Source: an uncultured Pseudomonadota bacterium (GTDB lineage: Bacteria > Oederibacteriota > Muellerivitia > Muellerivitales > Muellerivitaceae). Taken from it: a stretch of DNA of 64,000 bases. Below, one piece after another: positions 20,756-45,147 of this stretch. The stretch's first letter is position 1, and the number at the start of each line of letters is the position of its first letter. The stretch covers positions 32,001 through 96,000 of the forward strand of contig CAVYRH010000003.1 in the NCBI GenBank assembly GCA_963770835.1. The letters run 5' to 3'. The translations under genes were made by a program, and so were the position numbers. The notes under the pieces are model-generated. The model was given only the letters and a program-made list of their open reading frames with translations. It made no database searches and was not told where the DNA came from.

Positions 20756-20757
20756 AA

Positions 20758-21309
20758 ATGGACTCCTTCGAAAACGTCATCACAAGTCTCTTGGAGCGGG
20801 AAGGCTTCTGGACCCGTACATCCGTCAAGGTTGAATTAACAGATGTAGAAAAGAAGAAAATCGGATGGAAAACCAATCCCCGTCCGGAATTTGACATTGT
20901 GGCTTACAAAGGGAAAACGAATGAATTATGGCTCGTCGAATGCAAATCCTATCTCAACTCCGGGGGTGTAAATTATAGAGCCTTCAATGGAACGAACCCC
21001 GGTTTCGCCAAAAGATTTAAATTATTTAACAAACAAAAAAAATATAGGCTTGTAAGAAAGATTTTATTAGAAAAGTTGGTTGAGGCGGGTTTTTGCCGTC
21101 CAAACCCCAAGGTTAGCCTTGTATTAGTAGCGGGTAATGTCGTTGAAAGTCATCGTGAAAAATTAAAGTCGCATTTTGATAAAAAAGGCTGGATTTTGTG
21201 GGATGAAAAAGAATGGCACCCCAAGCTTAAGAAACTAGCCGGAGAAGGTTATGAAAACTCCATCGTTTCTGTAGTCAGTAAAATGCTTTTGCGAAGAACT
21301 GATAAATAG
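20758..21309 (+). CDS. PD-(D/E)XK family nuclease-like protein
   Basis: FE..., EFDIVA, LVECKS. Confidence 0.7.
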   Translation: MDSFENVITSLLEREGFWTRTSVKVELTDVEKKKIGWKTNPRPEFDIVAYKGKTNELWLVECKSYLNSGGVNYRAFNGTNPGFAKRFKLFNKQKKYRLVRKILLEKLVEAGFCRPNPKVSLVLVAGNVVESHREKLKSHFDKKGWILWDEKEWHPKLKKLAGEGYENSIVSVVSKMLLRRTDK

Positions 21310-21490
21310 ACAGGAGTTTTCTTTGCCCAAACCCTTCCTCAAATCCGACTTCCCTCCGCCTCGAATCAATTTTAACCAAACAAAATACATCCCTTTTCCT
21401 TCCTGCCCGGTTTTCACCCACCCCTGTTTAGTTTAACGACAAGGCGCTATTTCATTTACAACCTAACCCTCCGGGCGGACACTGATGTTG

Positions 21491-21584
21491 TTCGGTGTGG
21501 CAAGACCCAAAGGCCTACCACATTGGACCCCCGCGAAACGCGGATCTCCCCGGCATAGCGAGATCCCACCTCACCTAGGAGGTG
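21491..21584 (+). ncRNA. Candidate structured 5' leader RNA, copy 1
   Basis: Near-identical to 22353-22445; four hairpins, last one covers the GAGGTG RBS. Confidence 0.5.
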
Positions 21585-21590
21585 TCCGTC

Positions 21591-22325
21591 ATGTCTAAAA
21601 GTCCCATTTATAATTATGTTCCAGCCTGGTTCACCCAACGAACCGTTGAAATTTACAAACCCATGCCACCTTATGGCAGCCCCAAGGTGGTACGCACTCA
21701 GGTAGTTCCGGAAGACGCACCCGATTTCGCCTGTCATTACTGCCTGGAACCCTTACCCCTGATTCAATTTGAATCCGCCGACGAGTACCGCGTTTGCCCC
21801 ATTTGCCGGCACCGGGTATTGGATGCTTTTCTTCAAACCCCGGTTCACCTTTTAACCCGGGCCCAACAGGTGGAAATGTTCATAGGGGAACTTATTTTCA
21901 TCAAACAATGGAGATCGGTATTGGATTTGAGTTTGGAATTCTTCGAGCATGCTTCCTACGAAAACGAAAACGAGAAAGCCGATTTTAAGGAAGCCTGGGA
22001 CTTTATCGTTTCCCAAAAAGAAGTTGTTCTCGCCATGAATGGGCGGGTGGAAGTGGACTTCTGCATGGTTTTTTTGGATTACAAAAAACCGAAAAGCAAT
22101 TTAAAGGTTTATCTCTATAAACCTCGGGATTTCTGGTTTGACGCCCATGTGCAGAGCCGTTTGGGGTGCAGGCCCATTGAAGTGAACGGGTTTCAACTGC
22201 GCCTGGTAACCGCCACCAATTGGGCCGCCTACGGCTACCCCCGCTGTGAACAAATGGCCGTGATCGGGCTTTTGAAATGCCGCGGCCAATTGGCGTGGGA
22301 CGAAGTCTACGGCAAAAAAGCCTAA
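21591..22325 (+). CDS. Hypothetical Zn-ribbon protein (paralog of 23271-23990)
   Basis: CHYCL...CPICRH..L...L.TPV...TRAQQ shared with downstream paralog. Confidence 0.7.
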   Translation: MSKSPIYNYVPAWFTQRTVEIYKPMPPYGSPKVVRTQVVPEDAPDFACHYCLEPLPLIQFESADEYRVCPICRHRVLDAFLQTPVHLLTRAQQVEMFIGELIFIKQWRSVLDLSLEFFEHASYENENEKADFKEAWDFIVSQKEVVLAMNGRVEVDFCMVFLDYKKPKSNLKVYLYKPRDFWFDAHVQSRLGCRPIEVNGFQLRLVTATNWAAYGYPRCEQMAVIGLLKCRGQLAWDEVYGKKA

Positions 22326-22352
22326 GAAGCCGAACATAAAAAGTTGGTTTGA

Positions 22353-22445
22353 TTCGGTGGGGCAAGACCCAAAGGCCTACCCCATTGACCCCCGCGAAAC
22401 GCGGATCTCCCCGGAATAGCGAGATCCCACCTCCTGAAAGAGGTG
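22353..22445 (+). ncRNA. Candidate structured 5' leader RNA, copy 2
   Basis: Repeat of 21491-21584 with a compensatory stem change. Confidence 0.5.
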
Positions 22446-22449
22446 AAAC

Positions 22450-23274
22450 ATGGAAAAATTATTCGGCGTTGTATTCTATTTAATTGGTGTCGTTCAATTT
22501 ATCGCGGTGGATATGGGGGCGGCCGGAAGTATCTTAGAAAACGAGGGGTGGCATTGGATTTACTTACCCATTCGGTTGGCCTCTTTCGTAATGATGCTTT
22601 GCTTAAACTGGTACATTTTTATTTGGGCTCCAGGACAATTTTACCTGGTTCAAGAAACCGTAGTCCCGCCTAAAAATTCTCCGCCTCTTCATCCAACGCC
22701 TGTCGTTCCCGTCGACCCAAAGCGAGAACTATTCAAACAACCCACTCTTAAACCAGAGGCAGTTCATTACCCAATAAGGAAAACAGTTGTACTCAAACCC
22801 CGAGGGGATTCCGCTTCCTATGAAGTTCCCGCCGCCAAGACACCACTAACGCCTGATGAAAAGAAGTTTGCCGCGATGGTATCGCGGTTGAAAGAATTAG
22901 ATAAAGAAGGCGTAAGTATTGACGAGAAGGCTGAAGAAATACGGCGTTTGGGGGGCGAATTAAAGCGGGTAAATGACAAAAACGGGAATGAGATATGGCC
23001 ATTGAGCGAGACCCAATGGGAAAGGGAAATAGCGGAAAGACTTAAGGGTATCCATTGCCCCAATTGCCGAGGGATAGATATTGGCATGATCCTTTACGGC
23101 CAGTTGCCTAGAGGGGATGGTCGGTTAAACCATCTGATTCGCATGAAGTTATTTATACCGGGCGGCGGCCTCTCGGGCCTCGAGAATCTTTACTGTAATG
23201 ACTGCGAGAGCTATTGGGTAAGTGATAAATATTTAAGTGAGACCCCTCCTCCAGCGAGAGGCGGTGAAAAATGA
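22450..23274 (+). CDS. Hypothetical membrane protein with C-terminal Cys motifs
   Basis: Two N-terminal TM segments; CPNC...YG...C.DC. Confidence 0.65.
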   Translation: MEKLFGVVFYLIGVVQFIAVDMGAAGSILENEGWHWIYLPIRLASFVMMLCLNWYIFIWAPGQFYLVQETVVPPKNSPPLHPTPVVPVDPKRELFKQPTLKPEAVHYPIRKTVVLKPRGDSASYEVPAAKTPLTPDEKKFAAMVSRLKELDKEGVSIDEKAEEIRRLGGELKRVNDKNGNEIWPLSETQWEREIAERLKGIHCPNCRGIDIGMILYGQLPRGDGRLNHLIRMKLFIPGGGLSGLENLYCNDCESYWVSDKYLSETPPPARGGEK

Positions 23275-23990
23275 ATGACTTTCGTTCTTCTATTTTAGAT
23301 CCTCCCAGCAGTACGATTAACCACCCCCCAAAAACGGAACGGCCCTTGCGCCATAAGCGCCACCGGGACAAGCGGAAAAGATGCCCCTATTGCTTATGGG
23401 ATTTGACCGACTACGACCCGGAAGAAATTAAGGAACGGGGTAATCTATGCCCCCTTTGCCGCCACGGCATCCTGGAAAATCTTTTGTCCACCCCTGTCTA
23501 TGAATTTACCCGGGCCCAACAGTGGGATCTTTTGGCCAATGAAATGGAATATATCTGGGATGCGGAGCACCTTGACGTGGAAACCTACATCTTCGCAATG
23601 GGAAGTTATTACAACCCGGACTACGGCGAGGCCAAGGAAAGGTTGTGCGGCATGTTGGTGGAAAAGGAAGCGGTGTTGAGGCTGGAAGAGGAATTTATCG
23701 AGGCCGAGGGGGAATTGGACCTTCTTATCATCGCTTACTTGAATAAGTTGGCCGCGTGGAGGGGGGACATGGCCAGGCGGCTTTTCGTGGGGCGGCAATG
23801 GCGGCTTTCGGCCCGGCGGCTGAGCATGACCCATTTCAGTGAAAGGGAAGCGGTCGGGTTCCAACTGGGTTTCATACAGTCCTGTCCCTGGGGGGCCTTC
23901 GGGAGCCTGGACAAAAAGGAAAAGACCGTGGTCTATCTCGAGAAAATATTGGAGAAGCTTACTTGGGACCAGGGAAATATGGGGGCGTGA
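23271..23990 (+). CDS. Hypothetical Zn-ribbon protein
   Basis: CPYCL...CPLCRH; paralog of 21591-22325. Confidence 0.7.
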   Translation: MNDFRSSILDPPSSTINHPPKTERPLRHKRHRDKRKRCPYCLWDLTDYDPEEIKERGNLCPLCRHGILENLLSTPVYEFTRAQQWDLLANEMEYIWDAEHLDVETYIFAMGSYYNPDYGEAKERLCGMLVEKEAVLRLEEEFIEAEGELDLLIIAYLNKLAAWRGDMARRLFVGRQWRLSARRLSMTHFSEREAVGFQLGFIQSCPWGAFGSLDKKEKTVVYLEKILEKLTWDQGNMGA

Positions 23991-24044
23991 AATACAATCA
24001 GTAAAAAAGTGGGTCCAGCCCGAAATACCCCTGTAAAATATCCC

Positions 24045-24275
24045 ATGCCCAAACCCTACAATAAATCCGACTTTACACCCGCCGTCAAAGATCCCAAAAC
24101 CGGCCAGGTTTGGACCGGTGAAGACCATAAGGAAGCGATAAATAAAGCCCACAACGAGGGAAATAAGAGTGTTTATTTTGAAAACACCGGCTTTCTTCAT
24201 AAGGACGGCATCTTTTTCACCCGTTCCCAAACCGAAAGGCAATGGGGCTTCAAAACCAGCGCCGATCTGCGCTGA
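24045..24275 (+). CDS. Hypothetical protein
   Basis: 76-aa ORF in co-oriented run. Confidence 0.5.
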   Translation: MPKPYNKSDFTPAVKDPKTGQVWTGEDHKEAINKAHNEGNKSVYFENTGFLHKDGIFFTRSQTERQWGFKTSADLR

Positions 24276-24360
24276 AAACGTTTTTCCACCCCTCAAAATC
24301 CTCTTACCACTTTCCTCGTTTTTGTTCATAATACCGGCCATTCCAACTGGAGGTATTTGG

Positions 24361-25092
24361 ATGCGTAAATATTTGTCTTTCGTCCTCGTTTTTTTCGCCC
24401 TGGTATTCCTGAAAAACAACAACGCCTTCGCCGACGACTCGACCGCCAAAACAGCCCCTGGCGACGACAATGGCAAATTCTACGGCCAGCTCGTCGATTC
24501 CGGGGTGGAGGTCCGCAAGTGCATCCTCCAATATTTCGTGGACTACAAGAAATACCTTGTTGAAGGCAAGGAAAACAGGCCGGTTTCGTACGGGAAAAAG
24601 TTCCCGTGGAAATACTGGCCAGCCTATAAAAAAATGGACGCCGCCATCACCAGGATTGCCGGCAACAAGGAATATCCCGACTATTTCCTCACCTATGGGG
24701 CCAAAATCTTCCGCAAGCTCGAGGAGCCGGAGGTGAAGGCCTTTTATGGAACCCAATGGTCAAAAGAGGTGGAGGACGCCGTTCTTTCCCATTTCGAGCA
24801 GGACAGCCTTTCGGATTACAGCCTGGACGATTTCGACGCCAAGAAGGACGCCGGGCTCACTGAAACCCCGCTCCCCCTGCCCAAGGCCCAACCCCTCAAA
24901 CCCCTTGTCCTATATGACTCCTCGACCGACCCGGAGACCATGAAGGCACGGGCCACCCTGGGAATTTCCAACCCCCCGGACACCTCCGACGGCCAAGAGA
25001 ATGTACCGGCCCAACCGACCGCCACACCTAAACCCAAGGACGTGATCGGGGATGCTGCCGGCGATGCGGCCAAAAAAGTCTTTGGCTTTTGA
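24361..25092 (+). CDS. Secreted hypothetical protein
   Basis: GGAGG RBS, signal peptide MRKYLSFVLVFFALVFL...AFA. Confidence 0.7.
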   Translation: MRKYLSFVLVFFALVFLKNNNAFADDSTAKTAPGDDNGKFYGQLVDSGVEVRKCILQYFVDYKKYLVEGKENRPVSYGKKFPWKYWPAYKKMDAAITRIAGNKEYPDYFLTYGAKIFRKLEEPEVKAFYGTQWSKEVEDAVLSHFEQDSLSDYSLDDFDAKKDAGLTETPLPLPKAQPLKPLVLYDSSTDPETMKARATLGISNPPDTSDGQENVPAQPTATPKPKDVIGDAAGDAAKKVFGF

Positions 25093-25334
25093 TGAAAGAC
25101 CTCCCCTTCTGGCGCGGTGCCATCCACAACGCAAAGACGGTCCTCGTCCTGAAATCCGTCGGGGAAGACCTGGCCACCTTCAAGAACCAGGCCGACTTTA
25201 TCGGCGACAAGCCCAAGCTGAACGAGGCCCAGCTGGAAACCCTCCGTCTGGAATATTCCCTGAAAATGAAGAAGTTGACCGCCGAAGCCATGCCTCCACG
25301 GCCGCCCGGGAAGCCGAAATTTAAAAATGAGTGA
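25089..25334 (+). CDS. Hypothetical protein
   Basis: Overlaps previous stop codon. Confidence 0.55.
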   Translation: MMKDLPFWRGAIHNAKTVLVLKSVGEDLATFKNQADFIGDKPKLNEAQLETLRLEYSLKMKKLTAEAMPPRPPGKPKFKNE

Positions 25335-25383
25335 TTTTAAGAACCAGGATTTAAGGTAAAAAATAATATCAAAGGAGTCATTT

Positions 25384-26094
25384 ATGAAAATAATTCTTTA
25401 CCTTTGTTTGGTTTTTAGTGGTGCTTCACTTTTATTCGCAAAAGGGGCAATGGACACCATTAAATCAAACACGGTTGAAACGGCTCAAGACGATCCAAAC
25501 AAAGCAGAATCCGATTACCAAAGATACATTAAGGACAAAGCCGGGGATCTTATAATCGAAAAAGATAAATTCGAGAATCGAACAGTTATCAAAACCAATT
25601 TTGGTAGGGGTTGGGCGAATCGCAATGAATTAGAATTCTTTAAGCACAAAGGTGAAGATGGCTTTGACTTAGCTGGGGTTGAATTAAAAATAGAAGCTTC
25701 AATATTCGACAGTAAAAAGAACTCGGATCAATATGTTCTTTTGTTCAAAACAACTAATCCAGACACACCTTTTGGTGATAAAAAAATCGATGAAAAAAAC
25801 TTCAAATTCATGGACTGTAATGATTTTCATTGGCTGGTCGATGGAGCACCATTATCGTTTGTAAGTGAGAAATATTCTAATCATGTGGGGAAGGACTTAG
25901 TGGATACCATTGAAACTTTTACGGTTGTTTTAAACAAAAAACAATTTGAAAAGCTGGCTGTTGCATCAACCGTTGAATGCAAAATATGCGATACCCAATT
26001 TGTCTTTAACAAGAAGCACTTTTGGGTTTTGCGTTGGGTTATGGAGAGGGCTAAGGAATTACGGGCCACGAAGGAAACTAATACAAAAAATTGA
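25384..26094 (+). CDS. Secreted hypothetical protein
   Basis: GGAG RBS, signal peptide. Confidence 0.7.
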   Translation: MKIILYLCLVFSGASLLFAKGAMDTIKSNTVETAQDDPNKAESDYQRYIKDKAGDLIIEKDKFENRTVIKTNFGRGWANRNELEFFKHKGEDGFDLAGVELKIEASIFDSKKNSDQYVLLFKTTNPDTPFGDKKIDEKNFKFMDCNDFHWLVDGAPLSFVSEKYSNHVGKDLVDTIETFTVVLNKKQFEKLAVASTVECKICDTQFVFNKKHFWVLRWVMERAKELRATKETNTKN

Positions 26095-26218
26095 TCTAAA
26101 TTCCCTGAAAATTCGAGCTTTTCAAATTTGCCAAATCCCCAAAACTTGACCGATTCTCCCAGGAGGGCGTATATCTAAGGTATACCGATGTATACCTTTT
26201 CCCCTTTTTGGAGGTTTT

Positions 26219-26659
26219 ATGGCCACTCTCTACTTTTTGGGCCCGGCCCAGGAGATATTCAGGGACCTTTCCTTGCCCCTTATAGAACCTCCCGTGCCTG
26301 CAGGGGCTCCGGGCCCCCCGGAGGAATACAAAGAAAAGCGGATCGACCTGAACCGGCTTTTCAACTTCAACGCGTCCACTTTCACCTGGCTTGCCCAGGG
26401 CGATTCCATGATCGGCGCGGGGATCCACACGGGGGACATCCTGATCGTCGACCGGGCCCTCCAAGCGGCCCTGGGGGATATCGTCATAGCGGAAATCAAC
26501 CGGCAGCCCACGGTCAAGCGCCTTGGAAAAAACAACAACGCCCCGGCCCTGCTCCCCGAAAACGTGAACCACAAACCCATCCCCATCGACGAGGTCGAGG
26601 GCATCCGGGTTTGGGGGGTGGTTACGGGGGTCTTTCATCGCTTCAAGACCTATCGGTGA
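26219..26659 (+). CDS. umuD: UmuD-like S24 peptidase (Pol V subunit)
   Basis: VPAG cleavage site, GDSM catalytic Ser, TVKRL catalytic Lys; adjacent to umuC. Confidence 0.88.
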   Translation: MATLYFLGPAQEIFRDLSLPLIEPPVPAGAPGPPEEYKEKRIDLNRLFNFNASTFTWLAQGDSMIGAGIHTGDILIVDRALQAALGDIVIAEINRQPTVKRLGKNNNAPALLPENVNHKPIPIDEVEGIRVWGVVTGVFHRFKTYR

Positions 26660-26829
26660 GTGTTTTTAAAAATATCTTTCACGCTACAGCCCCGGATTTC
26701 GACGATGAACTCCCCGACCCGTACTCGGATACCCCCTCTTTGGAGGCTTTCATGCCCCGCAACTCGAAAGGAATTTTATGACGCGCGGGGCGATACCATT
26801 TTCAATAAACGGTTTATAGGAGAAATGGG

Positions 26830-28101
26830 ATGGACAAAATCTTCGCCTTGGTCGACTGCAACAACTTCTACGTTTCCTGCGAAAGGGTCTTTGATTTCAC
26901 CCTCCGCGACCGCCCTGTAGTGGTTCTTTCCAACAACGACGGCCTGGTAATTGCCCGTTCCAACGAGGCGAAGGCGCTCGGTTTCAAAATGGGCGACGCC
27001 GTTTTCCAGATGCAGGAAGCCATCAAGGAGAACCAAGTCGTCGTAATGTCCTCCAACTACGCTCTCTACTTCGACATGCGCGACCGCGTCCGGGAGGTGC
27101 TTTCCAATTTCACCCCCCGTTTGGAAAAATACAGCATCGACGAATGTTTCCTCGACTTCACCGGGATTCCGAAGGACGAGTTAGAAGATTACGGCCGCAG
27201 GATAAAAGCAAAGGTTGAAAAGTGGACCGGGATTCCTGTTTCGGTCGGAATCGGATCGACAAAGTGTCTCTCGAAACTCGCCAATAAGCTTGCGAAGAAA
27301 TCCGAGAAGGCCCGAGGGGTGCTGGACATCTACAAATCCCCGCACCTGGACAAAGCTTTGGAAGCAACGGACGTTGGCGACCTTTGGGGTGTGGGCCAGG
27401 CCTATGAAGGGATGCTTAAATCCAACGGCATCAACAACGCCCAGCAGTTCCGGGACGCACCGGAGCATTGGGTCCGATCCAGGATGACCGTCGTCGGAGC
27501 CCGGATTCAATCTGAGCTAAAAGGGGTGTCATGTATTGCTCTTAAAGAAATCCCTGATCCTCAACAAATGGTCGGCACCGCCCAGGGATTCGGTGTCCCC
27601 ATCGAAACGATTGAGGAACTAAGGGAGGCGGCCGCCACCTATGCCAACAAGGAAGCCGTCAAACTTCGCCAGCAAAAACAATGCGTCAAGGAGCTGGTTG
27701 TTTGGGTCCAAACCAACCCTTTCGGGAGGGACCCCCAATACGGAAACAAGGCCGAGATCGTTTTTCCCGTGGCCACGAATGACCCCTCGCTCATCATAAA
27801 GAAAGTGGTAAACGCCGTGGAAATGCTTTATAAAAAAGGATATCGGTACAAACGAATCGGGCTCAACGCGACCAAGCTGGAACTGGAGGATTGCGTCCAG
27901 GAGCACCTTTTCGTGAAGCCAGAGGACACCAAACGGCAGAATCTTTTACGGGTGGTGGACCAATTGAACGAGGTCAGCGGAGCCGGCACGGTCCGGACCG
28001 CCTCCGTTGTGATCGACGCCCGTTGGATGACCCGTTTCTCGAAACAGTCACCCCACTACACCACTAAAGTTAGCGATATTCCAATTGCCCGGGTGGGGTA
28101 G
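26830..28101 (+). CDS. umuC: Y-family DNA polymerase V subunit UmuC
   Basis: [34 protein letters not shown]-terminal SPHYTT. Confidence 0.95.
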
Positions 28102-28135
28102 GAAAAACCAGAGAACACAAAGATCCACACCCAAC

Positions 28136-28504
28136 TTATGGTTTTGATTTTGGAAAATAGGTCGTGGCCTCGCCCGCCACTTGCCCATTTACGACCACAT
28201 AAACCTTCACGTTCTTTTTGGCTTTCGGAAATGGAACTTCGATTGATTTTGCCTTTTCCGAGACAATTTGGCCGCAGGGTCCATCCTTGTGCGTAAATTC
28301 AAAGGTCAGGTATTCGGTATCTGGATCTTCGACCTTACCGGGTGGAATGCCGACCTTGAGTTCTCCCGGGACATAACAAGTATCCAATGTGGTAACCGTC
28401 ACATGAATGCCATAAATATCGCCATGTAGCCAGGCCATCCCAATTTTTGCCCCCAGATGAAACACCATATCGTTTGGCATAATCCAAATCCTTTCCGATC
28501 CCAA
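28136..28504 (-). CDS. Hypothetical protein (start uncertain)
   Basis: 122-aa ORF convergent with umuC. Confidence 0.45.
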   Translation of the reverse strand: MGSERIWIMPNDMVFHLGAKIGMAWLHGDIYGIHVTVTTLDTCYVPGELKVGIPPGKVEDPDTEYLTFEFTHKDGPCGQIVSEKAKSIEVPFPKAKKNVKVYVVVNGQVAGEATTYFPKSKP

Positions 28505-28720
28505 TATTTGAGTTGTTTCTTTTCATATTTCTTTCCGGGAAACAATCCCAAGTAATTTATCATTTTAAAACTGGTGGATAACTAAAAAAGCCAACCTCTT
28601 CAGGAACTGGGCGTCGTTATTTTAATGATAAACTTTCAATTATTTTTCGTAATAGCGTTTTTATTGTTTAAAAAGTGTCTTTTATTATTTTGGTAAAAAT
28701 TATTTTGACCCCCTTAAATT

Positions 28721-28757
28721 CCTGCACATGCCTGTCGCAAAAAGGATAGTGTGCAAC
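28721..28757 (+). repeat. 37-bp direct repeat 2
   Basis: Exact match. Confidence 0.97.
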
Positions 28758-29484
28758 AACTTCGCTTGAGCGATCGTTCAAAATCGCGAAAGAATTAGTG
28801 CGGGGCAAATGCGCTAATCAGCTCGATCTACTCCGATATCTCGCGTACCGATATAAAAAGGATGTGGGGACCGAACTCTTACAAGCGCAGACCCTTTTTG
28901 ATGTCTTGGACAATGTCCCGTGTTCGGAGAAAGGCAAGGAGCAACTCCTTGGTACGGAAGGATACATCGCGGACAAATATTTCAGCGGGTTAAAAAAATT
29001 CTATAGATTCCCGGGCCGAAAACCACAAGGCAGGGACCAGTTTAACAGCGTACTGAATTATGGTTACGGCATCCTTTACAATGAAGTCGAACGGGCATGC
29101 CTTTACGTCGGTCTTGATCCATATCTCGGCCTCTACCACAGTGAACGCTATGGTAAGCCTGCCCTCGTTCTCGATCTTGTCGAAGAATTCCGCGTACCAA
29201 TCGTCGACTCGGTGCTTTTCCCGCTTTTCATAGAAAAGAAACTGAGCCAACGGAAATATTTTGAAAAAACCGCGGTTGGGCAATATCTGTTATCGCCTGA
29301 GGGAAAAAGCGTCGTGGTGGGGGCGATCATGAGGCGGTTGAATGAAACGACGGCATGGCGGGGGAAACAATATACTCTTAAGCAGATCATAGATAACCAG
29401 ATTAGGGCGTTGGCACGTCACTTTGTCGAAAAGGAGGACAAGTACAACCCGTTTCGTGCGGAAAAACTTTTTTCGATATCATGA
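28758..29484 (+). pseudogene. cas1: 5'-truncated copy of cas1 (no internal stop)
   Basis: 28758-29838 duplicates 15553-16633 (offset 13205). Confidence 0.93.
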
Positions 29485-29816
29485 ACAATTTCAATGCCAT
29501 CACCCTAGTATCGTGGGAAACGCGCGACTGGCGGCATCGGGACAAGGCGGTTCTGTGGTGCAAGAATTATGGTCTCAAGCCGGTTTTCCGGAATATGTAT
29601 ATCGGAAAATTGTATTCAAAAGAACGGGAAAAACTCGAGAATAAATTCAAGGGGGCTTTCGCAAAGAAGACCGAAAAGTTTTTTATCAGTACGCTCTGTC
29701 GGTCGTGCTTTGAAGATTCGGTTTTCGGTGGTACGCTTAGTTCTAAGAAAGATGATGTCGACATTGAAACTGCGTTTGAACTTATCCAAATCACGCCGAA
29801 TTCGGCGGAACGGTGA
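29481..29816 (+). CDS. cas2: Second identical copy of Cas2-like gene
   Basis: Translation identical to 16276-16611. Confidence 0.75.
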   Translation: MNNFNAITLVSWETRDWRHRDKAVLWCKNYGLKPVFRNMYIGKLYSKEREKLENKFKGAFAKKTEKFFISTLCRSCFEDSVFGGTLSSKKDDVDIETAFELIQITPNSAER

Positions 29817-29838
29817 AAAACACCAATAATTGCAGGCT

Positions 29839-29875
29839 CCTGCACATGCCTGTCGCAAAAAGGATAGTGTGCAAC
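29839..29875 (+). repeat. 37-bp direct repeat 3
   Basis: Exact match. Confidence 0.97.
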
Positions 29876-30962
29876 ACTCACGGCCTTAAATTTGGGTGGG
29901 CCGGTGACGAACTTAAATCAACTTTCAGGTGCAGCCACGGTCTCGGGCAAGACTTATGTGTGGTGTGGGAACAGGATTTGTGAGGAAAGAGACGCAACAG
30001 GCAAACAGGTACTCAAAAGGTTCTTTTCCAACGGCGAGCAAGACAATGGACAAAACCTGTACTATACAAAGGACCATCTGGGAAGTGTTCGTGAGGTGAT
30101 GGATGCTTCCGGAAACATCCAAGGTCAGTTTGATTATGATCCGTGGGGCAGGCAGACCCAAATAGCCGGAACTATGCAGCCTTCGTTTGGCTACACTGGT
30201 CATTTTCAGGAACCGACGACAGGGTTACTGCTTTCCAAATATCGTGTCTATAACGCGGATATGGGAAGGTGGACATCGGGAGACCCAAAAGGGCAGGTCG
30301 CGGGAGCAAACATTTATTCTTATGTAAGGAACAATCCTCTAAACACAAGAGACACATTAGGCCTTTATGATTCGAATTCCTTTATAGATAACTGGTTGTA
30401 TAACCCTGATTCTGTATCTGATTTTATCGATCCTGACTATTTTGATTGGTTTACTCCGCAAGTAGCCAATACAGCTGAAAGAGTTGCCCAAGGGGCTGCG
30501 ATTGTAGGTGGTACCGTTGGCGGTATTTCCACACTTGCAGGGGCCGGAACATTGCTCTACTGCGGTTATGATGTTTTAGCTTCCGGGTCTTCTGCTTACA
30601 CTTCATTCGCAATTGGCAATGTACTTACTGGCGCTGCCCAGACGGGTTTGGGTCTGTTCGGGGGAGCACAAATCATAAATCAAGGTTATCAATTCTTCAC
30701 CAATCCAAATCCTGCATACAGTGAAGGTCAACCACTTTTCCAACAAAATGCTTTAACGACCGCATTGGATCTCGCAGGTGGCTTTGTAGGAAGTTCGACG
30801 ATGGATTTATTAAATGGAGCTGCGAGCGCGACCTCAGATTATTCTGACATGGATCAGCAACAGGAGTCAGGGGACCCGACTAATCAAGCAACGGATACTG
30901 CCCCAGCTTCAACCGATAACTGGTATTGGCAAGAAATTGATTTAAATCCAGATGGGACATGA
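29876..30962 (+). CDS. RHS repeat-associated core plus variable C-terminal (toxin) region; 5' part absent
   Basis: YYTKDHLGSVR, YDPWG, FGYTG, RVYN...GRW...DP, N.YSYV.NNP....D.LG. Confidence 0.88.
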
Positions 30963-30970
30963 CTTTTAGA

Positions 30971-31527
30971 TAAACCCTGCCAGCTAACCCCAGGCTTCAG
31001 CCTGGGGGCGAATGGCAGCCCGGAGGGCCGACTGAGTTTGTCGGCCCGAAGGCAAGGAACTGTGGAATGCTCTGGTCATGGGAAAATATTGGTCAGGCGC
31101 ACATACCAGACACCGACTGCAATATCACCTCGTTTGGATACCCAAGTATCGGAAACGAGTCTTGCTTGGCAAAGTTGCCGTCCGCCTGCAAGAGCTGTTT
31201 AGAGAGGCGGCCCACGTCAACCGTTGGGTAATCCACGAATTGAATATTCAGCGAGACCACGTGCATATGCTGATCCAGGTTGAGCCAAAGGTGAGTGTGG
31301 CTAAAGTGGTGCAGGTGCTAAAAGGCGGTACAAGCACCAAGATCAGGCGTGAGTACCCTGAACTTGAGGAGTTTCTCTGGGGGGATAGTTTTTGGGCGGA
31401 CGGCTACTTTGCGGAAAGTATAGGCACTGTGCAGGAGGAGATGATCCGCAAATATATCCGCGAGCAACAGCATGACCAGAGTATGCCGAAAGGTAGAAAC
31501 CCCGGGCTTTAGCCCGGGGAGATTCAT
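30971..31527 (+). mobile_element. IS200/IS605-family element (tnpA only), copy 1; ends approximate
   Basis: Subterminal hairpins CCCCAGGCTTCAGCCTGGGG (30988-31007) and CCCCGGGCTTTAGCCCGGGG (31500-31519). Confidence 0.82.
31078..31512 (+). CDS. tnpA: IS200/IS605 Y1 transposase
   Basis: YHLVWIPKYR, DHVH (HUH), KG..S, FWADGYF, YI.EQ. Confidence 0.95.
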   Translation: MGKYWSGAHTRHRLQYHLVWIPKYRKRVLLGKVAVRLQELFREAAHVNRWVIHELNIQRDHVHMLIQVEPKVSVAKVVQVLKGGTSTKIRREYPELEEFLWGDSFWADGYFAESIGTVQEEMIRKYIREQQHDQSMPKGRNPGL

Positions 31528-31614
31528 TAGCAAATAAACTAACTTTCTTGAATCGAACCTTTTTGGGGGATAATTACCAAACAAGTTTCTTGTCCAATAA
31601 TTTTGGGAGTGAAA

Positions 31615-31896
31615 ATGGCCGATAAGAAAAGAATTATTGTGAATGTTTTTTTTGTGCTGACAGTACTATTGGCGGGAATTGCAGCTCTCTTTTTATTTTT
31701 TTTAATGCCGGTAATACATTCTAAGTTTGCAATTTTCCATGAATATGGATTTTTGTGGCCTCTTTTTTACATTCTTTTTATTGTTTTATACTTTTTTGTT
31801 TTTTTTAAGTTGATCATTTGGTTATTAATCAAGTTTGTATATATGAAAATTATTGCTTGGATTGACAGAACAGACCCCCAAAGAAAAATCCCTTGA
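31615..31896 (+). CDS. Small membrane protein (candidate immunity protein)
   Basis: Two TM helices downstream of RHS tip. Confidence 0.55.
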   Translation: MADKKRIIVNVFFVLTVLLAGIAALFLFFLMPVIHSKFAIFHEYGFLWPLFYILFIVLYFFVFFKLIIWLLIKFVYMKIIAWIDRTDPQRKIP

Positions 31897-31935
31897 GGGT
31901 TCGAGGTTCAAAAACGCTTTTCCAGAGGAAGTTAA

Positions 31936-32335
31936 TTGAATAACACTTTTAAAATACTGGGATTCTTTTTTCTTTCTACGGCCCTGTTCTTTATTCAGAA
32001 CCCAAGCCAGGATTTTGGAAATATCGGGTCGGTTGTCTCTGCCATTCTGGCGATTGTTTTCCTTATAGGTGGTTTCAAATATCCGGGTGCCCTTAAAAAA
32101 ATCTCGATTTTCCTCCTGCTTGTTTTTTTGGGAGCGTGCATCCCCGTTTTTCTTTTTCCGGTTGTGGAAATACTGACGGGATTCCAGGTGTATAGCCAGT
32201 TGGTATCTAATAATTGGAAGCTTATAAGTGCGATTTTAGGCGCCTTATTTTCCCCTTCCTTTTGGTATTTGTTTCGTCGAATCAACCCGGACTGGAAAAG
32301 GTTGGCTGGCGGCATCCTTATATGGACGATTCTTT
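31936..32335 (+). pseudogene. Membrane protein truncated by repeat 4
   Basis: ORF runs into the repeat and ends with repeat-encoded CTCLSQKG*. Confidence 0.65.
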
Positions 32336-32372
32336 CCTGCACATGCCTGTCGCAAAAAGGATAGTGTGCAAC
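32336..32372 (+). repeat. 37-bp direct repeat 4
   Basis: Exact match. Confidence 0.97.
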
Positions 32373-32653
32373 ATGGTATGGGTGGAGATTTGGTGTTGAA
32401 GCCTGCCCTCAACCTCAACGTTAGTCGGGAACTGATGAACACCCAAGCCCAATACCAAGCCGCACTGGGTGGAGCATCCAATACGTCTTTTGTGGTGATG
32501 GGCGTGAATCCGGCTCCCGTCCTGATGGGACTTTCTGGAAATTTGGAGCTTATGGCTGGAAAGAACTTGAGCCTTTTCATCGGATATAGCGGTTATTTCA
32601 GTGGAACGGAGACCCTTAATACCTTCTCGGGGGGTGGAAATATTAATTTTTAG
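32373..32653 (+). pseudogene. C-terminal fragment of an outer-membrane/autotransporter beta-barrel
   Basis: Amphipathic strands, terminal Phe (GGGNINF); no start after repeat. Confidence 0.6.
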
Positions 32654-32821
32654 GTGGTTAATTTTTGGTTCGCGAGCAACCACAACTTGTTGAGGATGGG
32701 TTGAGATTAAATTCCTATATGTTGGAGTTGAGAATTTTAATGAGACTGGAGATCTTGTTGAAAAGCGTTGTATTTCAATTAAATTCTTAATTGAATAAGT
32801 TTTTCTTCGGAGGACATAAAT

Positions 32822-33484
32822 TTGAAAAAGTTTGTCTTTGCAATATTGATTTTCTTTTTTGTTGCCAACGAGGGATTTGCGGGGGAACTTGGATTTGGAG
32901 TCAATGCTGGTTTGAACGTTGCTAATCAAGGAATTAATAATTCCCCGGGCAATAATTTTAGTTCTCTTATTGGTTTTACTGGTGGCCTATTTACCGATAT
33001 AAAATTGTTTGATTTTTTGTCTCTTCAATCAGAAGCGGATTTTACAATGAAGGGAATTCAAGATGCCGTTCCTTCTTATCCTGACTATGACACAATGGGT
33101 AATCTATTAGGATTCCCCCGATCTGATTTTTCGTTCAAATATGAATATCTTGAAGTTCCCCTACTACTGAAGGGCAATTTTAATTTGACGCCTCAACTAC
33201 AAATTAATTTATTGTCCGGGCCCTCAGTAGCATTTCTTTTAAATGAAACTACTACTTTGTCACAGCCATCTTTCGACAATTCATTGGCTTCTTCGGCAAG
33301 CGTTGACGATACAAAAGATCATTCTGGAATTGATTGGGGAGTGATATTGGGAGCCGGAATAGAATATCAAAAATTATTATTTGAAATTCGCTATGACCTT
33401 GGGTTGGATTCGGTCAATAAACCTACGTTGGGAATTGTTAAAAACAGCGTTCTATCTTTTGTAGTAGGCTACCGAATTTTTTGA
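32822..33484 (+). CDS. Outer-membrane beta-barrel (porin family) protein
   Basis: Signal peptide, G..AGLN, YLEVPLLLK, RYDLGL, terminal GYRIF. Confidence 0.82.
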   Translation: MKKFVFAILIFFFVANEGFAGELGFGVNAGLNVANQGINNSPGNNFSSLIGFTGGLFTDIKLFDFLSLQSEADFTMKGIQDAVPSYPDYDTMGNLLGFPRSDFSFKYEYLEVPLLLKGNFNLTPQLQINLLSGPSVAFLLNETTTLSQPSFDNSLASSASVDDTKDHSGIDWGVILGAGIEYQKLLFEIRYDLGLDSVNKPTLGIVKNSVLSFVVGYRIF

Positions 33485-33790
33485 CTCACTAGGTTTAAAG
33501 AGTATTCCACTTTTGCACTGTTCTCCCTTCAAGCTCTTGATGGTGATTTATGAATTACTTGCTATCAATTGAGATTTATTCATGCCAAAAGTGTAAAAAG
33601 CCGTTAAAACAATGATTTTATCATTTTAGGTCATCATTTGTGCGAATTTTGAACGGAAGTATGCCTTTGTAAGATCTCACAGGCTTTAACCCTAAGCTCT
33701 AAATTGACAAACTACAAGATGGGCAGTAACGTTTTACTTGCCTTTGTTACTTTGCATGTAACTTTTAACAATATCTAATAGAAACATTTT

Positions 33791-34471
33791 TTGGTGGAGG
33801 GTTGCGTGAAGAAGCAAACCTTAATATTTGCAATTGCTTTTTTTGGGACAAGTTCGTTTCTGTTCGCTCAGGGTTTGAGGTTAGGAGTCGAGGCGGGACC
33901 AAGCTTTACTAATTTTGTTGGCCAACAAGGTAAGTCGGTGACTTCAGTAGGTCTTACTTGGGATGGATATCAAATTGACACCGGATTTACAGGCGGCCTT
34001 TTCGTAGATTGGTTTTTGTTTAACAATTTCTCCATTGAACCGGAAGTGTCTTTTGTTCAAAAAGGCTCCAACCCTCAGTCTACCATCAACAATAGTTCGG
34101 TAAATGACACAAGCAGTTCGGTTTACAGTTTGAATTACTTGGAGTTTTCATTGTTCCCAATGTATCATTTTCCTCTATTGGGCTTTACCGCAAATGTTTT
34201 TGGCGGACCATCCATTGGATTTTTGCTCTCCAACCAGATTCATTTTTTCGATTCCCAGAATTCTATAAATGTCACTTTGAATAACTACACCGGTATAAAC
34301 AATCTTGATTATGGTTTGAATCTTGGCTGTGGCGTTGAGCTTGGGCATTTTTTGCTGAATCTAAAATATCAACTGGGATTGGCGAATATTGAGAATCCTA
34401 ATCCTGGAAGTGGCGGGTTGCTTCCGGTTCAAAACCAAATGTTAACCCTTACCGCAGGTTATTACATTTAA
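33791..34471 (+). CDS. Outer-membrane beta-barrel (porin family) protein, paralog
   Basis: GFTGGLF.D, PE..F..KG, YLE, GPS.GFLL, KYQLGL. Confidence 0.8.
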   Translation: MVEGCVKKQTLIFAIAFFGTSSFLFAQGLRLGVEAGPSFTNFVGQQGKSVTSVGLTWDGYQIDTGFTGGLFVDWFLFNNFSIEPEVSFVQKGSNPQSTINNSSVNDTSSSVYSLNYLEFSLFPMYHFPLLGFTANVFGGPSIGFLLSNQIHFFDSQNSINVTLNNYTGINNLDYGLNLGCGVELGHFLLNLKYQLGLANIENPNPGSGGLLPVQNQMLTLTAGYYI

Positions 34472-34510
34472 TGAAAAAATTTTAGTGTTCGTTTTACGTA
34501 GGAGAATTTT

Positions 34511-34890
34511 ATGAAAGTGATACTTAAAACGATATTATTTTTTTCGTTAGCAACCCTTTGTTGGTCACAGACTATTTTCACTCCTACGAATACTCCAACC
34601 TCCACACCAACTGCAACGACGACCTTGACACCGACAAATACTACAACTCCTACCCCAACTACCACGCCGTTACGTATTCTGTTTCCTCCTACAAATACAT
34701 CGGATTTCACTTCAAATTCAAACATGTATTTCTTGTGGCACTACGATACCTCGACTGGGTGGGCTCAAATCCCATTCATGCCACACCAAGGAAGTGGAAA
34801 TAATGCAGTAGGATTGTTGGCGCCCGTTACTACCTTTAATGGACAATATGCTGTTGTAAAAGGTCAGGCTCTTCCTACTTCGAATTATTT
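34511..34890 (+). pseudogene. Secreted Thr/Pro-rich protein truncated by repeat 5
   Basis: Signal peptide, TPT linker; reads into repeat (LHMPVAKRIVCN*). Confidence 0.7.
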
Positions 34891-34927
34891 CCTGCACATG
34901 CCTGTCGCAAAAAGGATAGTGTGCAAC
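34891..34927 (+). repeat. 37-bp direct repeat 5
   Basis: Exact match. Confidence 0.97.
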
Positions 34928-35127
34928 TGAGATGGACGATACGGTGTTTATGGCTTCACCAACTAATTATTTCAACAACGGGAATAGTGATAGTTCCTTG
35001 ATTAATCCACCAGGGAATGCGAACGGATTGGAATTATCTGATACTGCCGAGTTACAAATTAATCCTGATTATGCGCCGCCAGAGATTTGTAACCAATCGA
35101 TAGGACTTGTTTATTGGAGGTTTACCG

Positions 35128-36288
35128 ATGAATTTGGAAACTAAGAAAAATCTCGGACGGTTGTTTTTTTGTTTTTCTTTTTTGGGCTGTTTTTTTGTAA
35201 TTCGAATTCTATTGTCTGCGGAGATCCCAAGCGATGGCGTTTTACTTTCCTTTCAAGGTAAGCCAGCCCAATTTACAGCTAAGGATGGTACAAAAGCCGA
35301 GTTATATGCTTCCGGCAAACAGGTGTGGGTTTGTTTTTTCCCCCCAGGAAAGAAAATGTACCTATTTCCTTGTAATCGGTATTTTTTAACCGGAAAGACT
35401 CCTTCCGGTCAGGATCGGGGATTAGTAGATGATCCAACTGGATTTTTTTTCCAGGATAAGGATGAAAAGAAAGCGGAGTTCATTGTCACGACAAAATCGT
35501 ATGGCGGAGAGTCCTTGGATGTGTTCGGTTGGAACGGCTATTTCTTCACACCCCAACCTTTTTGCCCTCCACATTTGCTTTGGGGAGTTAAGAAGGTGGA
35601 ACGCGAGTACTCAGAAACCTTAGGTCAAGATTATTTCTCGCTCGATTTTATTAATGGTCAAAGGGATATCTACTACGTTCATAACCATTATTTGGTACTA
35701 GGAAATGACGCCTTACTAAAAGTCGGTGAAAAACCCCGCACACAAGATTCTGACATCCTGGAATTAAATTCCCGCGTTGCAAAGGGTGATTGGGAAGGAG
35801 CACTGGATTCGGCAAAAAAGAATCGAAGCGCAAAAAAAGTACCGGGTAAACGAGAGATCATAAGCAATCGTATGCTCCAGGCCATTGATATTGAAAAAGG
35901 TAATTATGACGAGGCTGTGAGCGATTACTTTAAAAAGAATGACGGAACATATAACGAAAAAGCCCTTGCACCCGAGAGTTACGCAATGAGTTATGAATCT
36001 CTGGGAGATCAGTTGATCGTCAGTGGAAAGCTCGCGGAAGCAAAAGGATTTTACGAAAAGGCTATTGAGAATTATCAAAGTGAAATTGAAGGACTAAACA
36101 ACATGGAAGCTTCTTTTTTAAGCGTTTATAAGAATCTCAAATCAGTTCCAAATCTAAAACCACAACAACAAATAACCGATGAATACGCGAAACAACAAAA
36201 AGATTCTTTTGCTAAGTCTGTCGAAAAAGAAAATTCAAATATTGATCGGGTGAAACAAAAAACCGAAATGATCGACGAGCAAAAATAG
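35128..36288 (+). CDS. Hypothetical exported protein with TPR-like helices
   Basis: GGAGG RBS, N-terminal TM/signal, SYESLGD......G.LAEA..FYEKAI. Confidence 0.7.
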   Translation: MNLETKKNLGRLFFCFSFLGCFFVIRILLSAEIPSDGVLLSFQGKPAQFTAKDGTKAELYASGKQVWVCFFPPGKKMYLFPCNRYFLTGKTPSGQDRGLVDDPTGFFFQDKDEKKAEFIVTTKSYGGESLDVFGWNGYFFTPQPFCPPHLLWGVKKVEREYSETLGQDYFSLDFINGQRDIYYVHNHYLVLGNDALLKVGEKPRTQDSDILELNSRVAKGDWEGALDSAKKNRSAKKVPGKREIISNRMLQAIDIEKGNYDEAVSDYFKKNDGTYNEKALAPESYAMSYESLGDQLIVSGKLAEAKGFYEKAIENYQSEIEGLNNMEASFLSVYKNLKSVPNLKPQQQITDEYAKQQKDSFAKSVEKENSNIDRVKQKTEMIDEQK

Positions 36289-36348
36289 AATTTTTTTGGT
36301 TGAATTAGAAATTTTTACCGAGTTATTGGTCTTGAGCGAGGGTTTGAA

Positions 36349-37150
36349 ATGTGGAGTTTAAAACTATCAGCCCTAAAAGCGGTTATTAACATGGCAAAAA
36401 AAGTATTCAAATTATTTATGGTTATTTATCTTTTTCAAGGCATTTCGGCCTTGGAGGCGCAGCAGGCTTTTCAGTTCTTACAATTTACCGACAATCCCAC
36501 CTACCAATCCGATTATAATTTACCTTCAACCGACCCGCTTTATGACAGCTTGGCTGGCTTGACAGCGACAAAATTTTTGAGCGATCCAGCCCCTTCTGAA
36601 TGGGCTTCAGTGCCAAGTGTCTTGGTTTGTGATTCATTTGCGAACCGGATAGTTTGGAAAGCCTGGGATACGGCCGCAAATGCATATGGTTTTAATGCTT
36701 ATTCCCATGGTTTTTCAAATCCCCAAGGAATTGCGGCCCGCAGTAACGGCCAAATTTACGTCGTGGACTCGAACAACAACCAAATAGTCCAACTTTCCTA
36801 CAACGCGGGCACCATTAATTTTGTATCCCAGTTTGGGTCGACTGGTCATGCGCCCGGCCAATTTGTTTCTCCCATGGGAATTTCTTTAGATCAAAGCGGA
36901 AATATCTATGTGGCGGATTCTGGAAACAATCGAATTCAAAAATTCGATTCCAACGGGCATCCAATTAATTCATTCATGACTCCTAGCGGCCAAAATCTGC
37001 AATCCGAACCTACAAACTGTATCGGTCCATTTTTTGGGGGGCCGTTTGGAACCCCTCGCGGGATCACGGCTAGTTATTTAGATGGTAGTATTTACGTCGC
37101 CGACACCACTGGGAATATTGCGAAATTCGATTCATCCGGGAACTTGATTA
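36349..37150 (+). pseudogene. NHL-repeat protein truncated by repeat 6
   Basis: F..P.GI......IYVADSGNNRIQKFD repeats; ends in repeat-encoded TCLSQKG*. Confidence 0.82.
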
Positions 37151-37187
37151 CCTGCACATGCCTGTCGCAAAAAGGATAGTGTGCAAC
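37151..37187 (+). repeat. 37-bp direct repeat 6
   Basis: Exact match. Confidence 0.97.
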
Positions 37188-37248
37188 CCCCTACGCCGCC
37201 TAACCCATTTCCTTCACCAACACCGACACATCCATAAGGAGTTTATTT

Positions 37249-37902
37249 TTGAAAACATCCAATCAAAAAAATGAATTCAAATACCTTTATGGTGGCCATT
37301 ATGGGGGTCATCTTTTTCAATTATTCATTAACACTTTGTTCTTTGTTGCGTTCGGGTTAACTCATCACTACGATCACACCTTTTTCCCATTTGCGATAAT
37401 CCTGGGAATTTTTTGGATTGTCTTTGCAGTCCTTTTCTTAAAACGTATCAGTAACTTCCATACTTTGAAAAGGAATACCTATTTAAATGATTATTTAACC
37501 CAAAGATTTTATGAGTTGATGATGTTGGTCTTTGTGCCATTTTTTTTCTACTTTGTCTTTAATAAGGAGATATTTCTGTGGGTCTCTAGTTTGTTAGCAA
37601 TCTTGTATTGTTTTGAACATTTTTACATTAGGTATTCGGCCGAAAAATTAAATTTAAAACACCAAAGTATTTGGGCGGTTCGAATAGTTGTTTTTTCATG
37701 CGTCTTTTTTTATTTGTTTTTGATTTACACTTTTCGAAAATTTTTGCCTGATTTTTCTGGATTGATATGGAATCAGTTTTTTCTGGCTTCGGTGCTGACA
37801 CTGGTAATTGAAAGAATTTTGATGACTGTTTTGGGAGTAAGGGAAGGGAAAAAAATCATTTTTGATTTTTGGCAAAGGGCAACAAGTTTTAAAAAAATCT
37901 GA
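37249..37902 (+). CDS. Polytopic membrane protein
   Basis: Several hydrophobic segments, AGGAG RBS. Confidence 0.65.
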   Translation: MKTSNQKNEFKYLYGGHYGGHLFQLFINTLFFVAFGLTHHYDHTFFPFAIILGIFWIVFAVLFLKRISNFHTLKRNTYLNDYLTQRFYELMMLVFVPFFFYFVFNKEIFLWVSSLLAILYCFEHFYIRYSAEKLNLKHQSIWAVRIVVFSCVFFYLFLIYTFRKFLPDFSGLIWNQFFLASVLTLVIERILMTVLGVREGKKIIFDFWQRATSFKKI

Positions 37903-45145: not shown

Positions 45146-45147
45146 CC

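What the first reader, a model, noticed from the sequence alone, without database searches (positions are those of the whole stretch)
28758..29838. The array captured its own cas1-cas2-leader, and the copy preserves the intact cas1 codon
Seen: spacer 2 duplicates 15553-16633 and ends exactly at the leader-repeat junction. The only difference I see is 15862 G (TAG stop) versus 29067 C (TAC, Tyr of the conserved LNYGY motif). Inference: Cas1 was active when this spacer was made and was later inactivated, freezing the array, which suggests the activity is costly. The copy could restore cas1 by gene conversion. It also creates a second leader-repeat site at repeat 3. Ending precisely at the integration site suggests a half-site integration/strand-transfer product, which is a mechanistic clue.
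Basis: partly seen in the sequence, partly recalled or inferred. Interest (0 to 1): 0.8.

Follow-up and report, generated by a model that had tools for sequence, protein, structure and literature searches.

The report
CRISPR integrase that captured itself
A soil bacterium's CRISPR-type repeat array holds kilobase pieces of DNA instead of 35-base snippets, and one piece is a copy of the array's own DNA-inserting genes, likely picked up by an integrase that no longer limits insert length; the array is probably not frozen, because two intact copies of those genes lie elsewhere in the same assembly.

Summary
The duplication is real: 28758-29838 equals 15553-16633 except TAG versus TAC. It sits in a cas1-cas2 array of perfect 37-bp repeats with kilobase inserts; no effector was found. 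The layout recurs in related genera and Patescibacteria; this scan reported it before on other DNA, and nine paper searches found no description. "Frozen array" is not supported: the assembly holds two intact cas1-cas2-leader-repeat cassettes, and the copy is 100% identical to one, so donor and timing of the stop are open. Only the left junction is demonstrably new; leader-repeat 3 is the native junction. Relatives show inserts that span a repeat, so the copy was most likely carried inside a longer captured piece; a one-ended join, or a piece cut at the leader, gives the same sequence. Added here: insert ends share a symmetric sequence preference on both sides of the repeat (r 0.87, confirmed on 30 held-out ends), several inserts are cut cleanly from continuous sequence present elsewhere in the assembly, and a second repeat-cas1 junction exists. 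The stop is probably real (about 70%); no reads were available. The self-copy is a by-product; the length-free capture system is the discovery.

The parts
15167..15194 (+). 28-bp 11-6-11 palindromic site ('B site') that forms the left border of the mobile cas1-cas2 cassette
   Evidence: Same right arm directly before cas1 in all three G000 cassettes and in G004 and G014, left arm varies; contigs of 3 runs leave the window at 15163-15165
15239..16279 (+). cas1, 346 codons, with TAG at codon 208 (15860-15862), before the invariant H232, D244, E247
   Evidence: Translation; Pfam Cas_Cas1; intact form passes TIGR00287 at 251 bits, cut-off 72; alignment
16276..16611 (+). divergent cas2-like gene, 111 aa, intact
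   Evidence: No Pfam or NCBIfam hit; nearest Atlas clusters all Cas2, score 0.89, a lead only; conserved behind cas1 in 6 aligned loci
16612..16633 (+). 22-bp leader ending in GGCT
   Evidence: Sequence; 19 distinct leader-like flanks, nearly all ending in GCT
16634..16670 (+). repeat 1 (37 bp); 10 perfect copies in the window, 27 with variants in the assembly
16671..28720 (+). insert 1, 12,050 bp (adenine methylase, DndB-like, SRAP, UmuC-like genes); no near-identical copy elsewhere in the assembly
28721..28757 (+). repeat 2; its right end is the one demonstrably new junction of the self-copy
28758..29484 (+). 3' two-thirds of cas1 (from the last base of codon 105), with TAC at 29065-29067; longest frame 228 aa from GTG 28798, lacking the N-terminal domain
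29481..29816 (+). second intact cas2 copy
29817..29875 (+). second leader plus repeat 3 (native leader-repeat junction, a potential second insertion site)
29876..32335 (+). insert 3, 2,460 bp, RHS-locus fragment with IS200-like gene; both ends cut inside sequence that continues elsewhere in the assembly; likely the rest of the piece that carried the self-copy
   Evidence: its being part of the same captured piece is inference
32336..58007 (+). repeats 4-10 (32336, 34891, 37151, 38986, 43250, 45789, 57971) and inserts 4-9 of 1,798-12,145 bp, several with genes cut at the repeats; the array goes on to an 11th repeat at C3:101992

Best explanation
The stretch is a real 1,081-bp copy of the 3' part of cas1, cas2 and the leader, lying between two perfect repeats of an array with kilobase inserts, and it was likely captured by the array's own Cas1-Cas2, which appears to join any free DNA ends to the two sides of the repeat without measuring length. 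Shown: the left end is a new, exact repeat-cas1 junction; the right end is the native leader-repeat junction; intact cas1-cas2 cassettes exist on two other contigs. Inferred: the captured piece did not stop at the leader but ran across repeat 3 to a later junction (3.6 kb if it ended at repeat 4), taken from another copy of the cassette, because DNA around leader-repeat sites breaks often. Inferred: the TAG is a real, locus-private loss of one of three cassettes and does not stop growth of the array, since Cas1 can come from the other two.
For: Exact junction without microhomology. Insert ends, oriented by their 3' end, avoid C at -3 (8 of 192) and G at -4 (18 of 192) and favour A at -5 (87 of 192); the profiles of the two junction types correlate (r 0.87 at positions 1-6, 0.47 at 7-12, about 0 beyond; 110 and 82 ends) and the matrix holds on 30 held-out ends (p 4e-4). 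The copy's left end scores as a normal end (59th-71st percentile), the leader end low (5th). Repeats of one variant nested between repeats of another show inserts that span a repeat: G000 C3:385264/393106, L200:4517, L205:4493, L203, and inverted in L157; L205 also has a 7-bp leader remnant plus repeat in mid-array. Self DNA is enriched: a second repeat is followed by 22-23 bp of cas1 and then IS3; 2 of 27 against 0.03 expected (p 3e-4). Inserts 3, 7 and C3:393393 are overlapping cuts of one source that begins right behind leader-repeat 3. Intact cas1 on C15 and C16. Hotspots of self-acquisition upstream of the E. coli array are known (PMC10011333, passages).
Against: No donor locus with a repeat followed by the start of insert 3 is in the assembly, and capture from the sister copy of this same locus would leave a longer insert 3 behind repeat 4, which is not there. 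With a matrix trained only on ends of paired inserts the leader end scores -0.84 against 0.27 +/- 1.12 for true ends and -0.58 for controls, which is uninformative. The self-copy structure was seen only in this assembly: 2 of 110 right flanks start in the cassette, both in G000; none in the complete Patescibacteria genome G061. No integration activity has been shown; C15 and C16 could belong to a close strain (contamination 3.65%); action in trans is assumed.
Confidence: 0.5

Rival explanations
1. One-ended join: a sister chromosome broken at cas1 position 15553 was joined by Cas1 to the spacer side of the first repeat, giving a tandem duplication of cas1'-cas2-leader-repeat; insert 1 was added later at the first leader.
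For: Needs one new junction and no missing donor. Right flanks with no further repeat also carry the end preference (29 flanks with at least 3 kb in view, p 1e-4; 12 with at least 8 kb, p 0.02), and no conserved trailer follows the last repeat. Head-to-head repeat pairs in G000 C3:400723/400905 and L157 fit one-ended inversions.
Against: The reciprocal product (5' part of cas1 joined to a repeat) was found in 0 of 101 left flanks. Canonical integrases join the leader side first (PMC13034035, passages). Unpaired flanks can also come from very long inserts (25-26 kb gaps in G004) or from deletions between B sites.
Confidence: 0.22
2. One reading: a 1,081-bp fragment whose right end was made by Cas1 at the leader-repeat junction (half-site nick, then fork collapse) was inserted with both ends.
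For: Gives exactly the observed sequence with no missing donor; breaks upstream of arrays are known in E. coli (PMC10011333); both self junctions in G000 are in the sense that this needs.
Against: The leader end fits the end preference poorly (5th percentile; inconclusive). A fragment with a free leader end could also enter reversed; no reversed leader was found after any of 110 repeats. Leader-repeat travels intact in 13 truncated units, none directly preceded by a repeat among the 12 of them read, nor in a further 7-bp remnant.
Confidence: 0.18
3. Rearrangement without Cas1: recombination between repeats or an IS event fused two arrays.
For: The region is full of IS110, IS200, IS3, IS1182-like elements, group II introns and B sites; truncated leader units in relatives are bordered by mobile-element-like ends.
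Against: The new junction lies exactly at the repeat end, has no IS end or microhomology, and fits the end preference; repeat-by-repeat recombination cannot join a repeat to the middle of cas1.
Confidence: 0.06
4. Assembly artefact: the duplication is a mis-join, or (a separate question, about 25-30%) the TAG is a consensus error.
For: A 1-kb poly-T/poly-A stretch at C3:97310-98300 and a fragmented RHS gene at 59964-63845 show poor spots on this contig. All other copies and contigs of 4 runs have C.
Against: A mis-join would not respect the repeat end; kilobase arrays recur in independent genomes. Private substitutions are 14 in 86,274 multi-copy positions, 3 in 10,099 with no indel in this array region, and only 154 of 3,114 single changes in cas1 give a stop.
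Confidence: 0.04

Closest known systems
CRISPR adaptation module (Cas1-Cas2, leader, 36-37-bp repeat); nearest solved Cas1 is PDB 4N06, then 7CR6
   Same: cas1-cas2-leader-repeat order, invariant catalytic residues, perfect repeats on both sides of each insert, no fixed insert sequence
   Different: Inserts of 30-12,145 bp, median 1,154 (64 inserts) against a ruler-set 27-40 bp (PMC13034035); 22-bp leader; divergent Cas2; no RAMP, Cas5, Cas12f/TnpB, Cas9 or short-spacer array found in the assembly
Self-acquisition hotspot upstream of the E. coli CRISPR-1 array (PMC10011333, review passages)
   Same: DNA next to the array's own leader is over-represented among inserts
   Different: There it gives 33-bp self-spacers; here a kilobase copy that carries a whole cas2, leader and second insertion site
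Casposons (casposase, e.g. PDB 6OPM; PMC8464041, passages)
   Same: Cas1-family enzyme inserting kilobase DNA with a duplicated target next to a leader
   Different: Casposases insert their own TIR-flanked element, lack Cas2 and come with PolB; here inserts are unrelated fragments, Cas2 is present and the cassette holds only two genes
Integrons and dif-type cassette arrays (recalled, not from a call)
   Same: Growing array of gene-sized DNA at one site, genes mostly in one orientation (26 of 33)
   Different: Inserts are cut in mid-gene and bounded by a CRISPR-type repeat; the separate 11-6-11 B sites that carry the cassette are the part that resembles these systems

Membership tests
CRISPR-Cas system | Cas1 with catalytic residues, followed by Cas2 | tested here: met
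   TIGR00287 251 bits; E172, H232, D244, E247 invariant in 52 sequences; Cas2 assignment rests on position and an Atlas lead at 0.89
CRISPR-Cas system | Leader followed by identical, partly palindromic direct repeats | tested here: met
   10 perfect 37-bp copies, hairpin -12.5 kcal/mol; conserved leader end
CRISPR-Cas system | Spacers of uniform short length | tested here: not met
   64 inserts of 30-12,145 bp, only 2 under 50 bp
CRISPR-Cas system | Effector or crRNA-processing genes | tested here: not met
   0 hits for RAMPs, Cas5, Cas12f/TnpB, Cas9 in a 96% complete assembly; Cas12a, Cas13 and unknown effectors not searched
CRISPR-Cas system | Array transcribed and processed into guides | not testable with these tools
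Casposon | Terminal inverted repeats around a fixed element | tested here: not met
   Insert ends are unrelated to each other; no such repeat among the 25 longest inverted pairs
Casposon | No Cas2; PolB in the element | tested here: not met
   Cassette from B site to repeat holds only cas1 and the cas2-like gene
Integron | Whole-gene cassettes bounded by attC, with IntI beside the array | tested here: not met
   Inserts cut genes at the repeats; none of 12 tyrosine-recombinase hits lies on contig C3; the IntI-specific patch was not tested
   Leader end at the 5th percentile of true ends, uninformative with a stricter training set; sequence alone cannot separate the models

The most novel reading that the evidence does not exclude
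This Cas1-Cas2 clade is a natural length-free, sequence-blind DNA integrase: it treats each free end independently, so it files kilobase genes behind a 22-bp leader, copies its own insertion site, and also joins chromosome ends to the repeat, causing duplications and inversions. The self-copy is a fossil of that reaction, and repeated loss of cas1 (TAG here, an IS3-hit allele, truncated units in five relatives) is the host's way of damping a genome-rearranging enzyme.
Probability: 0.45. Interest if true: 0.92.

Novelty: categorically new. Interest (0 to 1): 0.78.

Why it matters
All characterised Cas1-Cas2 integrases measure about 30-40 bp; a two-gene version that inserts arbitrary kilobase DNA at a 59-bp leader-repeat site would break that rule, bridge CRISPR adaptation and casposon-like large insertion, give bacteria a gene-capture route distinct from integrons, and be a candidate tool for site-specific insertion or long-fragment recording. 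The self-copy matters as a clue: it shows the enzyme acts on its own neighbourhood and can multiply its target site. The end preference found here is a direct, testable prediction for the enzyme. The class 'categorically new' refers to the system, whose parts are known but which failed defining features of CRISPR arrays, casposons and integrons; the self-copy alone is a by-product.

Tried and rejected
Frozen array: rejected by two intact cassettes. C16 as donor: 2 mismatches, disfavoured; G004-type copy also 2. Capture from the sister copy of the same locus across repeat 3: predicted second copy of insert 3 is absent. Read pile-up: only contigs were served; 4 of 4 runs show C at 15862 but none covers insert 1, so none represents this locus. 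Recurrence in Patescibacteria: 3 of 401 genomes carried the Cas1 clade and 1 of 401 the leader-repeat pattern, too few to test; G061 has 8 repeats and no self-copy. Viral contigs: no relative and no repeat. Synteny test of the flank behind the C16 repeat: only short or partial matches in 12 of 30 relatives, no usable breakpoint. Search for a broken gene whose halves flank two different repeats: none among 27 repeats. Avoidance of C at the last base: not significant (p 0.07 and 0.21). Promoter scan of 15000-16900: 0 sites. No structure prediction was obtained, so why the ruler is lost is left open. Paper searches without a description of kilobase spacers: (listings only; open-licence library, most subscription papers missing; no supplements read).

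Full report
Observation. The two stretches are 1,081 bp each and differ only at 15862 G / 29067 C; identity extends one base to the left and through the 37-bp repeat to the right. The G makes codon 208 of cas1 TAG, upstream of the invariant H232, D244 and E247, so the product would be inactive; Y208 is invariant in 52 relatives. The copy begins on the last base of codon 105, lacks the N-terminal domain, and carries an intact cas2-like gene and the 22-bp leader.

The setting. The window has 10 perfect copies of a 37-bp repeat separated by 1,081-12,145 bp; the assembly G000 (4.58 Mb, 26 contigs, 96% complete) has 27 on three contigs. Several inserts cut genes at the repeats. No short-spacer array and no RAMP, Cas5, Cas12f/TnpB or Cas9 gene was found. 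Cas1 at 96-100% identity, without stops, occurs in 4 of 60 relatives, from three other genera of the family, with the same repeat at kilobase spacing; 7 of 30 family genomes match the cassette or repeat. Relatives at 58-72% lie mostly in Patescibacteria and show the same layout. Record titles of the closest hits name candidate division FCPU426, as do earlier notes on this genome. Across 64 distinct inserts bounded by repeats in the DNA I fetched, lengths run from 30 to 12,145 bp, median 1,154 (gaps over 30 kb and gaps not held in one locus were left out). Earlier notes of this scan describe the clade in other genomes (eight notes shown); I had reached the kilobase-insert reading before seeing them and took from them the phrase 'lost ruler'.

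Is the array frozen? The assembly holds two further complete cassettes, C15:17186-16149 and C16:36044-37081, both with TAC and open frames. The self-copy is 1081/1081 identical to C15, one base from the window's gene and two from C16; apart from the stop, the window and C15 cassettes are identical from cas1 to the repeat. The donor therefore cannot be named and the stop cannot be dated against the capture. With identical leaders and repeats, Cas1 from C15 or C16 would be expected to serve this array (inference; cis preference untested, and these short contigs could stem from a close strain). Freezing is not supported, and gene conversion from the copy, though possible by homology, has no evidence and no special need.

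Is the stop real? No reads were served; contigs of 4 of 4 runs have C, but none extends into insert 1. In 86,274 positions with at least two other copies there are 14 private substitutions (5 on one poor contig) and in the array region 3 in 10,099 with no indel; 4.9% of single changes in cas1 give a stop. Two of C16's three private changes recur in other runs, so they are real. Against this, a 1-kb homopolymer artefact and a fragmented RHS gene lie 45-50 kb downstream on the same contig. I put the stop at about 70% real. Loss of cas1-cas2 is common in the family: a second repeat in G000 is followed by 22-23 bp of cas1 and then IS3, a record of an IS-hit allele; 13 left-truncated cas2'-leader-repeat units lie in five relatives, two of which gave no close cas1. 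This fits a cost but also neutral decay.

Are the junctions made by Cas1? Where an insert has a second copy in the assembly, the copy runs on without a repeat: inserts 2, 3, 7 and 8 and C3:393393 are cut at arbitrary points of continuous sequence. Oriented by the 3' end that would attack the repeat, insert ends avoid C at -3 (8 of 192) and G at -4 (18 of 192) and favour A at -5 (87 of 192). The profiles of spacer-side (110) and leader-side (82) ends correlate at r 0.87 over positions 1-6, 0.47 over 7-12 and about 0 further in, and a matrix from the older set separates 30 held-out ends from their interior controls (p 4e-4) (leader flanks were dropped before counting, duplicates removed by exact 30-mer). 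One enzyme with one preference acting on both sides is the simplest reading (inference). The self-copy's left end scores as an ordinary end (59th-71st percentile).

What does 'ends exactly at the leader' mean? Leader-repeat is the native junction, so only repeat 2-cas1 is demonstrably new. Three routes give the same sequence. (a) A longer piece spanning leader-repeat 3 was captured from another copy. Precedent is direct: repeats of one variant sit nested between repeats of another in G000 C3 (two copies, 5 differences), L200, L205 and L203, and inverted in L157, and L205 has a leader remnant plus repeat in mid-array. Three overlapping cuts of the source that starts behind repeat 3 and two repeat-cas1 junctions among 27 repeats (expected 0.03 if drawn evenly from the genome) suggest frequent breakage around leader-repeat sites, as known upstream of the E. 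coli array (PMC10011333, passages read). Against it, the donor locus is not in the assembly and the same-locus version is excluded. (b) A one-ended join of a broken sister chromosome: supported by unpaired right flanks that carry the preference (29 flanks, p 1e-4; 12 with long view, p 0.02) and by head-to-head repeats; the reciprocal product was seen in 0 of 101 left flanks, and canonical enzymes join the leader side first (PMC13034035, passages). I rank them 0.5, 0.22, 0.18. The structure itself did not recur: both cassette-derived right flanks among 110 are in G000.

Mobility. In all three G000 cassettes and in G004 and G014, cas1 follows a 28-bp 11-6-11 site whose right arm travels with the cassette while the left arm varies; other runs leave the window at that site and after the first repeat. 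This points to a tyrosine-recombinase cassette array (inference; recombinase not identified) and explains several copies per genome and near-identity across genera.

Comparison and verdict. The unit works like CRISPR adaptation but fails uniform spacer length and shows no effector; it is not a casposon (Cas2 present, no terminal repeats or PolB; PMC8464041, passages) nor an integron. Nine searches of the open library (listings only) gave no description; subscription papers are mostly outside it. Observation confirmed; interpretation partly supported; the self-copy is a by-product and clue, and the length-free capture system is the surprising thing. Interest 0.78.

Noticed in passing
window 5686, 6284, 7416, 11454, 13300, 15167, 48556, 49487, 49893, 51904, 54014, 55259; dozens more on about 17 contigs: 28-bp 11-6-11 palindromic sites separate gene-sized cassettes in one orientation; arms assort as if crossover is in the 6-bp core. 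Looks like a dif-type cassette array with an unidentified recombinase; group II introns and IS110 sit directly behind many sites.
   Followed up: partly
L023:4203-4225 (G000 C3:384203): Repeat followed by 22-23 bp of cas1 (window 15877-15899) and then the left end of IS3: trace of a second self-capture and of an IS-interrupted cas1.
   Followed up: yes
33 inserts of at least 500 bp in G000 and family relatives: 26 of 33 with a clear call carry their genes in the sense of the array (17 of 21 in G000, p 0.007; 9 of 12 in relatives, p 0.15), although end preference is symmetric; selection or a replication-linked bias.
   Followed up: partly
G000 C3:400723(+) and 400905(-); L157:4253(+) and 4470(-): Head-to-head repeat pairs 109 and 144 bp apart; in L157 the two are different variants.
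   Followed up: partly
L187/L205, L200, L203, L023: The shortest inserts (30, 73, 94, 213 bp) lie beside a nested repeat variant, suggesting breaks close behind repeats.
   Followed up: partly
L143-L152, L159, L181, L199: Left-truncated cas2-leader-repeat units are often bordered by short motifs with TGACCCC or GGCCTGGCCCC/GGCCAGGCACC, or by IS ends; one such motif abuts a repeat directly (L199).
   Followed up: no
window 16626-16639: The last 8 leader bases and the first 6 repeat bases form an inverted repeat around the insertion point.
   Followed up: no
window 16671-28720: Insert 1 carries an adenine methylase, a DndB-like gene, SRAP and a UmuC-like polymerase, and has no copy elsewhere in the assembly.
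   Followed up: no
window 59964-63845 and G000 C3:97310-98300: RHS gene split over several frames, followed just beyond the window by about 1 kb of poly-T/poly-A, an apparent assembly artefact.
   Followed up: partly
G004 C1:431426, 405292, 380527: Successive repeats 26 and 25 kb apart behind an intact cassette; possibly very large inserts or inserts expanded by cassettes.
   Followed up: no
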